Source: a virus
Length of the DNA: 64,000 nucleotides
Virus record (IMG/VR): IMGVR_UViG_3300019889_000007
Location: 24,763-88,762 of that record
Strand: one strand, 5' to 3'
The first letter of the stretch is position 1. Each line of letters opens with the position of its first letter. The position numbers and the translations under genes are program-made. Shown here in pieces: positions 21,879 to 24,990 of this stretch. The notes beneath the pieces are model-generated. The model was not told the DNA's origin. It was given only the letters and a program-made list of their open reading frames with translations, and did not search any database.

Positions 21879-22172
21879 TCATGGCCCAGCCTGACGCAGC
21901 ATCTGGGCGTACGTGTACTGCCCGATGCTGGCGGTACCTGAGGGACTGACGATCGTGATCCGGTAGGTGCTGTTCTCCACGCTGCCAGTCGAGTAGATGT
22001 CTTTGCGGATTACCCACGGGGGCGTATCGAGGTGGCACCCGCATTCCAGGACGTACCCGGTGATGACATCACCGGCCACCGTTTGCAGGCGCGTCGTGGT
22101 GGCCTGCGGAAACCAGTGCTGGTTCCCGCAGGCCACACACAACTGGCCACTGGAGCAGGTCAGAACGGCCAC
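21879..22172 (-). CDS. Small Cys-containing protein downstream of Ro60
   Basis: Overlaps the Ro60 stop; CVAC...ECGC. Confidence 0.45.
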   Translation of the reverse strand: MAVLTCSSGQLCVACGNQHWFPQATTTRLQTVAGDVITGYVLECGCHLDTPPWVIRKDIYSTGSVENSTYRITIVSPSGTASIGQYTYAQMLRQAGP

Positions 22173-23815
22173 ACGGCGTCCTTACCACTCTCCAGGGCCG
22201 GGATCATTCCGAAGGCCGCATCGGAAAGTCCACCGAAAACGTACCGGTTGGGCGTATCGGGTAGATGCCCGAACTTGTATCCGCCCAAGTTCCACGTGTA
22301 AATCGGGATGTTCGCGGGCACGACGTCGTCGATCTTCTTCGGGACGTCCATGACGACCCGGCCCATGTGGTCGAAACGTCGCCGCGTCTCGGCCCAGTAC
22401 CGGCTGGCCACACTCAACGCCTGAGTCCACCCCGGATTGGTCTGCTCATCGGTGATGATGACGACCCGGTCATGCTTGTCATAGGTCATGACCACCGCCA
22501 GCTGCGTATCGGTACCGCCCATGTTGCTGAACTTGCCCATCGTGCGCAGCACCGAGTCGCCACGGGTGAACGGGATACGTTGATGGGCCGTGCCGTACTG
22601 GTACAGGTCAGCCGCCTCGGCACGCAACGCGATCACCGACCCGAACAGGCTGGCTTTCTCGTTCAGACCGAGCTGCTTATGGTTGCCGCCGTAGCCGTAC
22701 GGGAACATCGAGCTGGACTGGTCCACAAGCACCAGGGTCCGGCCATCGAAAGCTGGCACGCTCGACACTGACACCGCCAGGGCTTTCTCCAGGTACTCGC
22801 CCCATCGCAGCGACCCGACGTTCTTGTGCGCCGAGTAGAACCGGAACGGCAGCTGCCGGGACCGTTTGATCTGATCGGCGCTGGCCAGGCGGTCCTGCAC
22901 CTGCCGGATCGCGGCATCGGGGAGTCCGGCCTTGTCGAAGTTCGCGAGGTTACGGATGAGCGCCATGATCCCCATCGACGGGATCGTGGCTTCCCACATT
23001 TTCTTTTGGCTCGCACCGATTTGCCCGGCCATGGAAATGGAGTCTTCCCACGTCAATCCGGCGTCTGCCAGTTTCGTCGACAGGGTTTGCACGGTGACGT
23101 TGTCGATGCCTTCGGCCAGGATCGCTTTACGGACGGCCCGGTTGGTCCACACCTGCCCCAGGATGCCCAACGGCACGGGAGTGTCAGGGTTGGACCGGTG
23201 CTTGGCAATGTACCGGAACAGGGACGACTGCTCTGCTGAGGCGGGTTTTGGGTGGACCAACGCGATGACGTCGGCGAACCGGAACGTGTTGTTCCGGGAG
23301 TCCCACTTCAAGAAGTTGAACTGCGTGTACAAGCGCCGGACGGCATCGGCGATACCGCGTTTGATCGGCTGCGGGATCTTGCGGCCGTACTTCGTTGTCC
23401 AGTACGCCAGGGCTTCAGCGGGCTCGTCAGCGCGCACTATCACCGAATCGATGAGCTTTCGGCCGCCCGGCAGGCCCGCGATCCGCATCGCGTCGGCCGC
23501 CTCCACCGCACCCACCAACGACGCCGAACGCATGTTGGCCTTATTGCGTAGCCACGGTAGGAACCGGGCGATCCACTCCGGGTCCACCACGGCCACGGCC
23601 TGAATCAGATGCCGGTACCGGTTGTCACGATGATCGGCCGCCTCATAGAACGCTTCGGTGGACACCATGTTCGACACGGCCAACAGAAACAGTTCAGATC
23701 GGGGGTCCCGCGAATAGGCGGGCGCGTTGTGGAAGTTACGGCCGTCGGCGACCGCCGATCCCCTGATCGGTGACTTCTGCCGGACGGCAGCGCTGGCGGT
23801 GTTGAACTTACCCAT
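22160..23815 (-). CDS. rsr: Ro60/Rsr TROVE-domain RNA-binding protein with vWA domain
   Basis: SELFLLAVSNMV..EAFYE, RADEPAEALAYW...KIPQPIKRG, MALIRNLANF, SRQLPFRFYSAH, MIDAS DQSSSM, GGTD, IITDEQ. Confidence 0.97.
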   Translation of the reverse strand: MGKFNTASAAVRQKSPIRGSAVADGRNFHNAPAYSRDPRSELFLLAVSNMVSTEAFYEAADHRDNRYRHLIQAVAVVDPEWIARFLPWLRNKANMRSASLVGAVEAADAMRIAGLPGGRKLIDSVIVRADEPAEALAYWTTKYGRKIPQPIKRGIADAVRRLYTQFNFLKWDSRNNTFRFADVIALVHPKPASAEQSSLFRYIAKHRSNPDTPVPLGILGQVWTNRAVRKAILAEGIDNVTVQTLSTKLADAGLTWEDSISMAGQIGASQKKMWEATIPSMGIMALIRNLANFDKAGLPDAAIRQVQDRLASADQIKRSRQLPFRFYSAHKNVGSLRWGEYLEKALAVSVSSVPAFDGRTLVLVDQSSSMFPYGYGGNHKQLGLNEKASLFGSVIALRAEAADLYQYGTAHQRIPFTRGDSVLRTMGKFSNMGGTDTQLAVVMTYDKHDRVVIITDEQTNPGWTQALSVASRYWAETRRRFDHMGRVVMDVPKKIDDVVPANIPIYTWNLGGYKFGHLPDTPNRYVFGGLSDAAFGMIPALESGKDAVWPF

Positions 23816-23855
23816 CGTGAGTCCTTTGTGGCGTACACGGGGAGGTGCGGCATGA

Positions 23856-24007
23856 GCCGTCAGGGATCTGAGAAAAAATTGACCGGAGACACGAACCGCT
23901 CTGCCGCTGAGCTAACTGACGCTTACACGAAAGTCTTGGATTCGAACCAAGGACCTGTCTCTTGAAAGGAGAAGTAGCTCCGGTCGTCGCACCAGTGCCC
24001 TGACGGC
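23856..24007 (-). ncRNA. yrlA: YrlA-type Y RNA #1 (permuted tRNA mimic; Glu UUC-like loop)
   Basis: Terminal stem GCCGUCAGGG/CCCUGACGGC, GGUGCGA...UUCUC Ro-site region, UACUUC, T-arm CUUGG-UUCGAAU-CCAAG preceding D-arm UAGCUCAGCGGCAGAGC; adjacent to rsr. Confidence 0.9.
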
Positions 24008-24014
24008 ACAAGCC

Positions 24015-24173
24015 GCACATCCCGAGAAAAAAGTTGCCGGAGAACACGGTGGCTTTGGCCGCTCGCCCACACCGGCCTGTTACGGACCGGCGGCAGGATT
24101 CGAACCTACGAGACCTTTAGGGTCACCCATTTGTCAAGAATGAAGTAACTCCAGCTATCGCACCGGGATGTGC
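24015..24173 (-). ncRNA. yrlA: YrlA-type Y RNA #2 (Ser UGA class-II tRNA mimic)
   Basis: Terminal stem GCACAUCCCG/CGGGAUGUGC, GGUGCGA, UUACUUC, variable arm GACC-CUAAA-GGUC, T-arm GUAGG-UUCGAAU-CCUGC, closed acceptor-like stem, D-arm GGCGAGCGGCCAAAGCC. Confidence 0.9.
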
Positions 24174-24232
24174 AACACCGAACACCATACCCACACGGTT
24201 ACGTCTACGCCACGCATTTGCGTGAAGTGGAT

Positions 24233-24388
24233 GTCGCGCCCACCGAGAAAAGAGAATCGACCGGAGTTGAGAAACTTGCTAGCGGCCTGCCAATTAACCG
24301 ACAGTAGACTCGCGAAGGGTCTACCGGCAGGACTCGAACCTGCACAACCAACGGAAGTAACCCCAGCCTTCACACCGGCGAACACGAC
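24233..24388 (-). ncRNA. yrlA: YrlA-type Y RNA #3 (no anticodon-like arm)
   Basis: Terminal stem GUCGUGUUCGCCG/CGGUGGGCGCGAC, GGUGUGA, UUACUUC, T-arm GCAGG-UUCGAGU-CCUGC, closed stem CGGUAGAC/GUCUACUG, D-arm GGUUAAUUGGCAGGCC. Confidence 0.88.
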
Positions 24389-24395
24389 AACACTC

Positions 24396-24424
24396 ATAGT
24401 AGCCATGTCGTGTCTGCCTGTCAG
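24396..24424 (-). promoter_or_regulatory. Sigma70/HrdB-type promoter for the Y RNA-rsr operon
   Basis: CTGACA-N17-TACTAT, with 7 nt between the -10 box and the 5' G of Y RNA #3. Confidence 0.75.
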
Positions 24425-24472
24425 CTAGCGGTCCGTTGCCACCCCAAGAACCGTTGATACGAAAGAGAACCC

Positions 24473-24990
24473 ATGAAACCTCGTCTGGCCGTGACCATAT
24501 CGTCCTGACCGCGTTCCTGATCGCCTGTGGCGCACCCAACCGCGACGTCAGAAACGAAGGCCCCCAAGCCACCGACCCTGCCGACACCTCCAGTGCCACC
24601 ACGGCCGCCGCCGATACTGACGCGGCCCTCGGCGAAACCCTCAACATCGACGAGGAAGCCCGCGTCACCGTCACCGAAGTCGACACGTCAGTGGAGTCGG
24701 ACAACCAGTTCGATGAGCCTCGCTACGGTGGCTACGCCTCCGCCGCCGTCGAAGTCGAAGCACTCGAATCGATGCTGGTCACCGTGACCGACTTTAAACT
24801 GATCGCCAAAGACGGCACTGCCTACAAATCCATGCTGTTCGTATACGGGTTCGACGGAGTGCTCGAACATCAGACCATCAAAGCCGGGCAGAAAGCCTCG
24901 GGCCTGGTCATATTCGATGTCGACCCGAAAAACCTCGGCGACGGCGGCCAAATTGAATACGACGGCTCCGCGTACTGGAGCTTCAAATAA
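24473..24990 (+). pseudogene. DUF4352-like lipoprotein, 1-nt frameshift in signal peptide
   Basis: SD plus MKPRLAVT frame stops at 24508; adding 1 nt near 24498 gives MKPRLAVT(I)IVLTAFLIA-C lipobox joined to the DUF4352-like domain (GQKASGLVIFDV). Confidence 0.65.

What the first reader, a model, noticed from the sequence alone, without database searches (positions are those of the whole stretch)
22160..24424. Phage operon of three tandem Y RNAs feeding a Ro60/TROVE gene
Seen: one promoter (CTGACA-N17-TACTAT, 24396-24424, minus strand) precedes three ~155-nt units at 24233-24388, 24015-24173 and 23856-24007, followed by rsr. Each unit has its own long terminal stem, a shared GGUG(C/U)GA...U-tract-UUCUC Ro-binding region, an inner G/C stem with UACUUC, and a tRNA-like domain ordered T-arm, closed acceptor stem, D-arm. 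The stems differ in sequence but still pair, which points to selection on structure rather than recent duplication. Known: Ro60/Rsr binds Y RNAs, YrlA RNAs are permuted tRNA mimics encoded next to rsr, and some phages carry them. Inference: a diversified array lets one Ro60 form several RNPs with different tRNA faces, either to redirect host RNA decay/repair (Rsr-Y RNA-PNPase) or to absorb tRNA-targeting defences. No rtcB is adjacent here, unlike many bacterial loci.
Basis: partly seen in the sequence, partly recalled or inferred. Interest (0 to 1): 0.93.

Follow-up and report, generated by a model that had tools for sequence, protein, structure and literature searches.

The report
Three Y RNAs before phage Ro60
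A soil phage of actinobacteria carries the gene for the ring-shaped RNA-binding protein Ro60 preceded by three different tRNA-like partner RNAs (Y RNAs); the locus is real, but this layout is the usual one for a family already described in bacteria and phages.

Summary
On the minus strand, a promoter-like site (24424-24396) precedes three ~155-nt units (24388-24233, 24173-24015, 24007-23856) and a complete Ro60/TROVE gene (23815-22160).

- **Identity.** Rfam's YrlA model gives three full-length but sub-threshold hits (24, 18 and 15 bits; cut-off 69). A covariance model built only from relatives' RNAs hits exactly these three units in 64 kb (69.5, 55.8 and 38.5 bits; next best 7.8).
- **Divergence.** The units are 51-62% identical, keep 95% of pairs, and show compensatory changes at 16 of 29 pairs. 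They are old paralogues.
- **Novelty is overstated.** In 166 related loci, arrays of two to six Y RNAs beside rsr are the norm.
- **Already in print.** Chen et al. 2014 reported YrlAs in 22 phages and co-processed YrlA/YrlB in M. smegmatis. A 2025 study showed that a phage Ro60 binds two upstream Y RNAs and host PNPase.
- **Earlier in this scan.** The scan has noted such arrays on other DNA before.

Function here is inferred, not shown. The verdict is a new member of a known kind. The side details are a rare unit with a long variable arm (class II tRNA-like) and a conserved long stem around the rsr-proximal unit.

The parts
24396..24424 (-). Promoter-like site: -35 CTGACA (24424-24419), 17-nt spacer, -10 TACTAT (24401-24396). 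The predicted start is near G24388, the first base of unit 1.
   Evidence: sequence; 9 of 12 matches, 2 sites where shuffles give 0.6. In relatives, a TANNNT at this distance precedes 49 of 151 first units but only 5 of 119 inner units.
24374..24421 (.). Inverted repeat spanning the -10 element, with arms 24374-24389 and 24406-24421 and an 8-bp perfect core ACACGACA/TGTCGTGT. It may be an operator, or an alternative hairpin that includes the 5' strand of unit 1.
   Evidence: repeat I3, 81% complementary. (a spurious mir-BART19 hairpin match at the same place). Function not tested.
24233..24388 (-). Y RNA unit 1, 156 nt. It has a 12-bp terminal stem, GGUGUGA (24376-24370), UUACUUC (24360-24354), a T arm (24343-24327), a closed 8-bp acceptor-like stem (24326-24302) and a D arm (24299-24284). 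It lacks a hairpin between ACUUC and the T arm; the linker is 10 nt.
   Evidence: R1 55.8 bits, E 1.1e-11, with no non-canonical pairs. Rfam YrlA 18.1 bits..
24174..24232 (-). 59-nt spacer between units 1 and 2, with a small 5-bp hairpin (CACGC-AAAU-GCGUG). There is no Y-RNA model hit and no promoter-like site.
24015..24173 (-). Y RNA unit 2, 159 nt. It has a perfect 10-bp terminal stem, GGUGCGA (24164-24158), UUACUUC (24148-24142), an anticodon-arm-like hairpin (24143-24127, loop CUUGACA), an extra long-variable-arm hairpin (24124-24112), a T arm (24109-24093), a closed acceptor-like stem (24090-24072) and a class II-type D arm (24067-24051).
   Evidence: R1 38.5 bits, E 1.5e-7. Rfam YrlA 14.8 bits. 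ARAGORN calls the 5' part tRNA-Ser(tga) at 24084-24167, but the best tRNA-clan score is 20.9 bits against a cut-off of 47. The linker is 32 nt; the family mode is 18-19 nt.
23856..24007 (-). Y RNA unit 3, 152 nt, the one nearest rsr and the closest to the family consensus. It has a 10-bp terminal stem, GGUGCGA (23993-23987), CUACUUC (23977-23971), a hairpin with the 7-nt loop CUUUCAA (23972-23958), the variable loop AGGUC, a T arm (23951-23935), an acceptor-like stem with a GUAA loop (23934-23915) and a D arm (23912-23898).
   Evidence: R1 69.5 bits, E 5.5e-15. Rfam YrlA 24.2 bits, E 0.012.
23840..24023 (-). Extended helix enclosing unit 3, with arms 24023-23993 and 23870-23840: about 26 bp with 3 mismatches. 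Its 5' arm overlaps the 3' strand of unit 2's terminal stem. I infer it is a processing stem (an RNase III-type site) that separates the Y RNAs from the rsr mRNA.
   Evidence: repeat I1, 31 nt, 84% complementary; flank pairing of -38.4 kcal/mol, z -7. rsr-proximal units in 105 related loci have median z -3.07, against -0.03 for other units. Cleavage not tested.
22160..23815 (-). rsr, a Ro60 orthologue of 551 aa (TROVE ring plus a vWA domain with the MIDAS motif D365-x-S367-x-S369). The ribosome-binding site AAAGGA lies at 23827-23822.
   Evidence: Pfam TROVE E 2.6e-15. phrog_850 E 3.4e-42. It is 47-54% identical over its full length to actinobacterial and metagenomic TROVE proteins. PDB 9KOP/9L5Y (Thermus phage phiLo Ro60), E 4.1e-28.
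22099..22136 (-). 18-bp hairpin 24 nt after the rsr stop codon, terminator-like but without a U tract. It lies inside an unconserved 97-aa ORF (21879-22172).
   Evidence: repeat I2, 94% complementary. The ORF has no Pfam or PHROG match and no tblastn match in the 176 loci held.

Best explanation
This is a phage copy of the actinobacterial-type Y RNA / Ro60 operon.

Shown by the sequence and by comparison:
- A tailed soil phage carries a complete Ro60 (Rsr) gene.
- It is preceded on the same strand by three diverged YrlA-type Y RNAs.
- Each has a terminal helix bearing the family's conserved 5' motif GGUGCG(N)AG, an inner helix ending in UACUUC, and a permuted tRNA-like module (T arm, closed acceptor stem, D arm).

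Inferred from M. smegmatis YrlA/YrlB (Chen 2014) and Thermus phage phiLo Ro60-Yrl1/Yrl2 (PMC12135203):
- One transcript starts at about 24388 and is cut into three ~150-nt RNAs plus the rsr mRNA. The long helix around unit 3 probably serves as a double-strand-specific cleavage site.
- Each RNA binds the outer face of the Ro60 ring through the GGUGCGA helix.
- The tRNA-like end tethers a host factor, most likely PNPase or another protein that binds the tRNA elbow. The phage thereby redirects or damps host decay of structured RNA during infection.
- The three units offer different tRNA-like ends: elbow only, class II-like with a long variable arm, and class I-like.
For: - Three full-length hits with a model built without the window: 69.5, 55.8 and 38.5 bits, next best 7.8 in 64 kb.
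- Three full-length sub-threshold Rfam YrlA hits.
- Family structure supported over 106 sequences: 96.7% of cells paired, 26 of 29 pairs with compensatory change, 0 of 500 shuffles as good, and slid controls at 37-49% paired.
- Within the three units alone: 95.3% paired and 16 of 29 pairs compensatory.
- The same motifs are conserved in relatives.
- Ro60 is intact and full length, with the MIDAS motif, and is related to the solved phage Ro60.
- Y RNAs lie beside rsr in nearly all of 166 related loci: 211 and 153 hits.
- There is a promoter-like site at the first unit, and relatives show a -10 element enriched at first units.
- Long flanking helices are conserved at rsr-proximal units.
- The phage identity is confirmed by terminase, portal, major head, major tail and tape-measure genes.
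- Published precedent: co-processed YrlA/YrlB bound by Rsr (PMC4201824); phage Ro60 binding two upstream Y RNAs and host PNPase (PMC12135203).
Against: - No expression, processing or binding data exist for this locus. It comes from soil metagenomes, and a second sample carries the identical sequence, so there is no natural variation to use.
- Rfam's curated threshold is not reached.
- Folding energies of the single units are not better than shuffles.
- The strict CGAA / GNCGAAN0-1G motif is present in none of the three units (UGAA, CGAU, CGAC). These variants do occur in the family.
- Covariation counts come from model-fitted alignments of related sequences, which inflates them.
- The PNPase link is by analogy only. 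The record encodes no PNPase and no RtcB.
Confidence: 0.85

Rival explanations
1. Structured leader rather than separate RNAs. The three modules stay attached to the rsr mRNA as a long 5' UTR, which Ro60 binds to regulate its own synthesis. No free Y RNAs accumulate.
For: The units, the ribosome-binding site and rsr are contiguous, with no terminator-like site between them. The extended helix around unit 3 ends only 13 nt before the ribosome-binding site, so RNA structure and Ro60 binding could affect translation.
Against: In M. smegmatis the equivalent upstream RNAs are processed from one precursor and accumulate as Rsr-bound species (PMC4201824). Each unit closes on its own terminal stem. 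In some related loci the arrays lie downstream of rsr (L086, L044, L017, L090), where they cannot be a leader.
Confidence: 0.08
2. Remnants of a tRNA gene cluster. The units are decayed or dimeric tRNA genes, as found around Ro genes in related phages, and have no specific tie to Ro60. Unit 2 may even be a working tRNA-Ser(UGA).
For: ARAGORN calls tRNA-Ser(tga) in unit 2. Related phages place Ro inside tRNA clusters. Chen 2014 warns that dimeric tRNAs can mimic YrlA. ARAGORN also calls 'tRNAs' in the 5' half of at least 23 related units.
Against: The best tRNA-clan score for unit 2 is 20.9 bits against a cut-off of 47, whereas true phage tRNAs score 42-75 bits. All three units carry the non-tRNA parts of the family (GGUGCGA helix, UACUUC, 3' UCUCGG, terminal stem), which are conserved and covary across more than 100 sequences. 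The T arm precedes the D arm within each closed unit.
Confidence: 0.04
3. Decoy panel. The array has been expanded and diversified in phages so that tRNA-shaped RNAs with different identity elements soak up or report host tRNA-cutting defences (anticodon nucleases). The main purpose would not be to tether PNPase.
For: The units differ mainly in the anticodon-arm and variable-arm region: linkers of 10, 32 and 19 nt. Units 2 and 3 have 7-nt loops with a U at position 2 and an A or C at position 6. At least 3 full tRNA-like units occur in 9 of 79 viral loci and in 0 of 78 cellular loci.
Against: Arrays of 2-3 Y RNAs are equally standard in cellular actinobacteria. Most family members have a short hairpin with a 4-nt loop here, not an anticodon-like loop. 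No defence or counter-defence gene is linked. Two loops matching a loose pattern is within chance.
Confidence: 0.1

Closest known systems
Mycobacterium smegmatis YrlA/YrlB-Rsr locus, and the YrlA family generally (Chen et al. 2014, RNA 20:1715, PMC4201824; Rfam RF02553)
   Same: The Y RNAs are encoded directly 5' of rsr on the same strand. There is more than one Y RNA per locus, and they are processed from a single precursor. The tRNA-like module has the T arm before the D arm and a closed acceptor stem. The RNA is about 147 nt. YrlAs were already reported in 22 phages, including mycobacteriophages.
   Different: Here there are three full tRNA-like units, rather than one YrlA plus a hairpin-type YrlB. 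The scores are far below Rfam's cut-off. The 5' motif is GGUG(C/U)GA rather than a strict GNCGAAN0-1G. One unit has a long variable arm.
Thermus phage phiLo Ro60 with Yrl1/Yrl2 and host PNPase (NAR 2025, PMC12135203; PDB 9KOP, 9L5Y)
   Same: It is a phage-encoded Ro60 with Y RNA-like genes immediately upstream. The phage has no PNPase of its own. The window's protein matches this solved protein at E 4.1e-28.
   Different: phiLo has two RNAs, described as stem-bulge-stem with a CGAA motif and no tRNA-like domain. The protein identity is only about 27%. Binding and PNPase attenuation were shown there, not here.
Salmonella rsr-yrlBA-rtcBA RNA repair operon (Chen 2013/2014; Hughes et al. 2020, PMC7790460)
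   Same: Ro60 sits with a YrlA-type tRNA mimic, whose tRNA-like fold was confirmed by crystal structure (preprint 10.1101/312249).
   Different: The window's record has no RtcB, RtcA or RtcR. The promoter is sigma-70-like rather than sigma-54/RtcR. An Rnl2-type RNA ligase (PF09414) lies about 25 kb away instead.
Deinococcus radiodurans Rsr-Yrn1-PNPase (RYPER)
   Same: The working model is the same: the Y RNA tethers the Ro60 ring to an exoribonuclease, and several Y RNAs are encoded upstream of rsr.
   Different: Yrn1 has a different order of tRNA-like arms and retains both strands of the metazoan-type Ro-binding helix (PMC4201824).
Cultured actinophages with unannotated arrays: Gordonia phages VanLee and Neville, Streptomyces phages Quantum and GiJojo
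   Same: Two or three R1 hits lie directly upstream of the 'Ro-like RNA binding protein' gene: VanLee 74.9 and 101.9 bits; Quantum 34.1, 49.1 and 121.6; Neville 42.3 and 85.8; GiJojo 95.3 and 57.2.
   Different: Their Ro proteins are only 38-42% identical to the window's. They sit next to real tRNA clusters. The RNAs are unannotated, or annotated as tRNA-Arg or as small ORFs.

Membership tests
YrlA-type Y RNA (Rfam RF02553; Chen et al. 2014) | Encoded within 4 kb of a Ro60 orthologue, on the same strand | tested here: met
   The units lie 41-573 nt upstream of the rsr start, on the same strand.
YrlA-type Y RNA (Rfam RF02553; Chen et al. 2014) | Score at or above Rfam's gathering cut-off (69 bits) | tested here: not met
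   The scores are 24.2, 18.1 and 14.8 bits, all full length. None of the related actinophage or viral RNAs I scanned reaches the cut-off either; the best is 50.2 bits. The model under-detects this whole branch.
YrlA-type Y RNA (Rfam RF02553; Chen et al. 2014) | Permuted tRNA-like module: T arm, then a closed acceptor-like stem, then a D arm, with T-loop UUCGA(A/G)U and GG in the D loop | tested here: met
   Present in all three units.
YrlA-type Y RNA (Rfam RF02553; Chen et al. 2014) | Conserved 5'-strand Ro60-binding motif GNCGAAN0-1G (CGAA) in the terminal helix | tested here: inconclusive
   The units have GGUGUGAAG, GGUGCGAUAG and GGUGCGACGA. The core (C/U)GA is kept but a strict CGAA is not. 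In 300 related units, the five bases after GGUG are most often CGCAG (98), CGAAG (31) or CGUAG (13), so the window's variants fall inside the family's range.
YrlA-type Y RNA (Rfam RF02553; Chen et al. 2014) | Match to a family-specific covariance model built without the query, with helices supported by covariation | tested here: met
   R1 gives 69.5, 55.8 and 38.5 bits. Across 106 sequences, 26 of 29 pairs are compensatory. Among the three units, 16 of 29 are. The alignments are model-fitted.
YrlA-type Y RNA (Rfam RF02553; Chen et al. 2014) | Bound by Ro60 in vivo or in vitro; tRNA-type modifications; RNase P or CCA-adding activity on the module | not testable with these tools
   No RNA data are available. 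No RNA holder was listed.
Ro60 / Rsr (TROVE + vWA) | TROVE (HEAT-repeat ring) domain | tested here: met
   PF05731, E 2.6e-15, 57 bits against a cut-off of 23. phrog_850 'RNA-binding protein', E 3.4e-42, covering residues 24-544.
Ro60 / Rsr (TROVE + vWA) | C-terminal vWA domain with the MIDAS motif DxSxS | tested here: met
   D365, S367 and S369 are invariant in the 17-sequence alignment; T435 and D456 are also invariant. The motif reads VDQSSSM in the DNA.
Ro60 / Rsr (TROVE + vWA) | Full-length homology to characterised Ro60 proteins | tested here: met
   100% coverage at 47-54% identity to actinobacterial TROVE proteins. PDB 9KOP/9L5Y (phage phiLo Ro60), E 4.1e-28.
rsr-yrlBA-rtcBA RNA repair operon | RtcB ligase (and RtcA/RtcR) adjacent to rsr | tested here: not met
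   There is no PF01139 match in the 88.7-kb record, though the record is only about 62% complete. The neighbours of rsr have no RNA-repair domains.

The most novel reading that the evidence does not exclude
Phage Y-RNA arrays could be expanded, diversified panels of tRNA look-alikes. This one has an elbow-only unit, a class II Ser-like unit with a long variable arm and a UGA-bearing 7-nt loop, and a class I unit with a UUC-bearing loop. Loaded on one Ro60 ring, they would act as decoys or sensors for host enzymes that cut or bind tRNAs, rather than only as tethers for PNPase. The long-variable-arm unit (1-3 of 219 units surveyed) would then be a captured class II tRNA identity.
Probability: 0.1. 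Interest if true: 0.7.

Novelty: new member of a known kind. Interest (0 to 1): 0.3.

Why it matters
The locus adds one more uncultured actinophage to a known class, so its own weight is small. Three practical points come out of the comparison.

1. Rfam's YrlA model misses the whole actinobacterial and actinophage branch at its curated threshold.
2. In deposited phage genomes these RNAs are unannotated, or are called tRNA-Arg or small ORFs.
3. Multi-RNA arrays are the rule, so studies of phage Ro60 should expect several distinct partner RNAs.

The conserved long helix around the rsr-proximal unit gives a testable handle on how the RNAs are released from the rsr transcript.

Tried and rejected
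- **Megablast** of the locus against phage records found no match.
- **The search for related loci** with the single protein found no relatives. The alignment-based scans worked.
- **MAFFT** alignment of the three units alone misaligned the 3' half, so it was not used for a model.
- **Single-sequence folding energies** were no better than shuffles and were not used as evidence.
- **Chen 2014 supplementary tables** (numbers of YrlAs per phage) are not held. The 2020 Annual Review (PMC10870794) is not held either. I therefore could not check whether three-unit phage arrays are listed in print.
- **Expression:** no RNA holder was listed.
- **Laying contigs** of a second soil sample gave an identical locus, with one SNP in rsr, so there is no natural covariation to read.
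- **ORF 21879-22172** downstream of rsr has no family match and no tblastn match in the 176 loci held. I left it as uncertain.
- **A first duplex-length count** for terminal stems was uninformative. I replaced it with a flank-only test against shuffles.
- **Mycobacteriophage Ro loci** did not appear in the phage protein search, so ET08-type YrlAs could not be compared directly.
Full report
**1. What is in the sequence**

All features below are on the minus strand of 22160-24424.

- A promoter-like pair, CTGACA (24424-24419), 17 nt, TACTAT (24401-24396), ends 7 nt before G24388.
- Three units follow: 24388-24233 (156 nt), 24173-24015 (159 nt) and 24007-23856 (152 nt). They are separated by 59 and 7 nt.
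- Then come a 40-nt gap containing the ribosome-binding site AAAGGA, and an ATG at 23815 that opens a 551-codon frame ending at 22160.
- The promoter scan finds this site at 9 of 12 matches. It is one of two sites in 2.9 kb, where shuffles give 0.6.
- Each unit closes on its own terminal stem of 12, 10 and 10 bp. The stem of unit 2 is a perfect inverted repeat (I7).
- Each unit contains, in the same order: GGUG(C/U)GA, (U/C)UACUUC, a T arm with loop UUCGA(A/G)U, a closed hairpin in the acceptor position, a D arm, and a U-tract followed by CUC(G/A)G.

**2. Is it more than chance?**

Single-unit folding energies are not better than dinucleotide shuffles (z = 0.30, -1.32, -1.58), so I did not rely on them.

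Rfam finds nothing at curated thresholds in the window. With E-value reporting it gives three full-length YrlA (RF02553) alignments at 24.2, 18.1 and 14.8 bits, against a cut-off of 69.

For an independent test I collected Ro60 loci:
- 80 from IMG/VR and 80 from actinobacterial genomes;
- six annotated actinophages.

I then took ten YrlA-like stretches from those relatives only. RNAalifold gave 29 pairs, 20 of them with compensatory changes. I built model R1 from that alignment.

R1 finds exactly three full-length matches in the 64-kb window: 69.5 bits (E 5.5e-15), 55.8 bits (1.1e-11) and 38.5 bits (1.5e-7). The next best is 7.8 bits. In the whole 88.7-kb record, the only other hits are weak partial ones (19.8 and 15.4 bits) at a genuine tRNA-Trp.

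**3. The protein**

The ORF is a full-length Ro60 orthologue.
- Pfam TROVE, E 2.6e-15.
- PHROG 'RNA-binding protein', E 3.4e-42 over residues 24-544.
- 47-54% identity at 100% coverage to actinobacterial and metagenomic TROVE proteins.
- Conserved N-terminus and an invariant MIDAS motif, D365-x-S367-x-S369.
- Its only solved relatives by sequence are 9KOP and 9L5Y (E 4.1e-28). These are the Ro60 of Thermus phage phiLo.

**4. The genome**

The window is part of a linear IMG/VR record that is about 62% complete. It encodes terminase, portal, major head, major tail, tape-measure and minor tail proteins, so it is a tailed phage. It comes from soil metagenomes.

The Ro60 protein is nearer to cellular actinobacterial proteins (about 50% identity) than to those of cultured phages (38-42%).

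The Y RNA-rsr block is a small minus-strand island between plus-strand genes:
- Upstream and divergent is a DUF4352 protein (24436-24990).
- Downstream and convergent are proteins of unknown function.

The record has no RtcB and no PNPase core domain. It does have an Rnl2-type RNA ligase (PF09414) next to a YspA/SLOG protein. That pair lies about 25 kb from the rsr locus and about 2 kb outside the window.

**5. Structure and divergence of the three units**

Aligned to R1 (A7):
- The units are 51-62% identical pairwise.
- 95.3% of pair cells form standard pairs.
- 16 of 29 pairs carry a change on both sides.
- None of 500 shuffles reaches these values, and partners slid by 1-3 columns pair at only 34-49%.

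The units are as similar to units of other loci (58-64%) as to each other.

Across 106 family members the same structure is 96.7% paired, with 26 of 29 pairs compensatory. One caveat applies to both counts: the alignments are fitted to the model and the sequences are related.

**6. How unusual is a three-unit array?**

It is not unusual.
- R1 gives 211 hits in 86 viral or phage loci, and 153 hits in 80 actinobacterial loci. Almost all are on the rsr strand and directly upstream of rsr.
- Counting only the best 150 hits per set, full tRNA-like units per viral locus are distributed 0:6, 1:40, 2:24, 3:5, 4:4. In cellular loci the distribution is 0:12, 1:37, 2:29. Extra short (~80-nt) YrlB-like units bring many loci to three or more.
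- Examples of long arrays: L019 (4), L029 (4), L080 (4), L079 (5), L085 (5), L086 (6, downstream of rsr).
- Cultured phages show the same layout. Streptomyces phage Quantum has three hits. Gordonia phages VanLee and Neville and Streptomyces phage GiJojo have two each.

The literature already covers the kind:
- Chen et al. 2014 report 355 YrlAs in 254 bacteria and 22 phages, and list all copies within 4 kb of rsr. They show that M. smegmatis YrlA and YrlB are cut from one precursor upstream of rsr and are bound by Rsr.
- Earlier notes of this scan also record many such arrays on other DNA.

**7. What differs between the units**

The units differ mainly between UACUUC and the T arm.
- The family mode for this linker is 18-19 nt (219 units).
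- Unit 3 has 19 nt, unit 1 only 10 nt, and unit 2 has 32 nt. Only three other units in the survey have a linker of 28 nt or more.
- Unit 2 has an anticodon-arm-like hairpin (loop CUUGACA), an extra GACC-CUAAA-GGUC hairpin in the place of a long variable arm, and a D arm of the class II type.

ARAGORN therefore calls the first 84 nt of unit 2 a tRNA-Ser(tga). The best tRNA-clan score there is 20.9 bits against a cut-off of 47, while real phage tRNAs score 42-75 bits. I read it as mimicry, not as a tRNA gene.

The same miscall is common in relatives. ARAGORN places a 'tRNA' in the 5' half of at least 23 related units. Two of these are the annotated tRNA-Arg genes of VanLee and GiJojo. Both score below the tRNA cut-off (26.9 and 24.1 bits) but fit R1 at full length (101.9 and 57.2 bits). 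This fits the published idea that YrlAs arose from dimeric tRNA transcripts.

**8. Processing**

The terminal stem of unit 3 extends to about 26 bp with three mismatches (arms 24023-23993 and 23870-23840; I1). Its 5' arm overlaps the 3' strand of unit 2's stem.

I tested only the 25-nt flanks outside each model hit, against shuffles:
- rsr-proximal units in 105 loci pair far better than chance (median z -3.07, median -25.3 kcal/mol).
- Other units do not (median z -0.03).
- The window's unit 3 gives z -7.

I infer a conserved double-stranded processing site that frees the Y RNAs and leaves a short rsr leader. This is not shown.

Two further observations bear on transcription:
- A -10-like TANNNT at the right distance precedes 49 of 151 first units but only 5 of 119 inner units. 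This is consistent with one promoter per array.
- An 18-bp hairpin 24 nt after the rsr stop (I2) may end the transcript.

**9. Mechanism and rivals**

Most likely (0.85 for identity, lower for each functional step):
1. One transcript is made.
2. It is cut into three Y RNAs plus the rsr mRNA.
3. Each RNA sits on Ro60 through the GGUGCGA helix.
4. The tRNA-like end recruits a host factor, with PNPase as the best-documented candidate.

Rivals:
- A purely cis-acting leader (0.08).
- A decayed tRNA cluster, or a working tRNA-Ser (0.04).
- A decoy panel against tRNA-targeting defences (0.10). This is a variant of function rather than of identity.

The decoy idea is weakened in two ways. Cellular genomes carry the same arrays, and most family members have a tetraloop hairpin rather than an anticodon-like loop. 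Viral loci do more often have three or more full tRNA-like units (9 of 79, against 0 of 78).

**10. Verdict**

The functional inference is untested, and the novelty is overstated. This is a new member of a known kind, with a few useful side observations.

Noticed in passing
window 24015-24173 (-): Unit 2 mimics a class II tRNA. It has an extra GACC-CUAAA-GGUC hairpin where a long variable arm would sit, a Ser/Leu-type D arm, and a 7-nt loop CUUGACA. Its ACUUC-to-T-arm linker is 32 nt, against a family mode of 18-19 nt; only three other units of the 219 surveyed have 28 nt or more. ARAGORN calls it tRNA-Ser(tga) at 24084-24167, but tRNA models score it below threshold.
   Followed up: partly
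L009 2204-2275 (Gordonia phage VanLee), L006 2269-2343 (Streptomyces phage GiJojo), L008 1963-2373 (Gordonia phage Neville): The deposited annotations call parts of Y RNAs 'tRNA-Arg' (VanLee tct, GiJojo cct) or small hypothetical ORFs (Neville genes 88-90). These stretches fit the Y RNA model at full length (101.9, 57.2 and 85.8 bits). The two 'tRNAs' are below Rfam's tRNA cut-off (26.9 and 24.1 bits).
   Followed up: partly
40 related loci (L006-L171 subset): ARAGORN places a 'tRNA' with varied anticodons in the 5' half of at least 23 Y RNA units, always starting a few bases inside the unit. The 5' ~72 nt of many family members can therefore also be drawn as a cloverleaf. This fits the published dimeric-tRNA origin model.
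   Followed up: partly
window 23840-23870 with 23993-24023; rsr-proximal units of 105 loci: A helix of about 26 bp encloses the rsr-proximal Y RNA. Flank pairing outside the model hit is strongly non-random for proximal units only (median z -3.07, against -0.03 for others). It is a candidate conserved processing stem.
   Followed up: partly
window 24374-24389 with 24406-24421: An inverted repeat with an 8-bp perfect core brackets the -10 hexamer and includes the first bases of unit 1. It may be an operator, or an alternative RNA hairpin.
   Followed up: no
window 22099-22136 and ORF 21879-22172 (-): An 18-bp hairpin lies just after the rsr stop, inside a 97-aa cysteine-containing ORF with high third-position GC (0.81). 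The ORF overlaps the rsr stop and has no family match and no counterpart in related loci.
   Followed up: partly
G000:C1:22288-23058 (+), about 2 kb before the window start (L177 1369-2139): The phage encodes an Rnl2-type RNA ligase (PF09414, E 4.1e-12) next to a YspA/SLOG-family protein (PF10686). It lies about 25 kb from the Ro60 locus. Streptomyces phage Kela has an RNA ligase directly upstream of its Ro gene.
   Followed up: partly
all related loci scanned with Rfam: Rfam RF02553 (cut-off 69 bits) reaches at most 50.2 bits on actinophage and actinobacterial-type YrlAs, so standard annotation misses this whole branch.
   Followed up: yes
L086 5845-7541, L044 5172-6192, L017 5467-6200, L090 4630-5652: In some viral contigs the Y RNA array (up to six units) lies downstream of rsr rather than upstream.
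   Followed up: no
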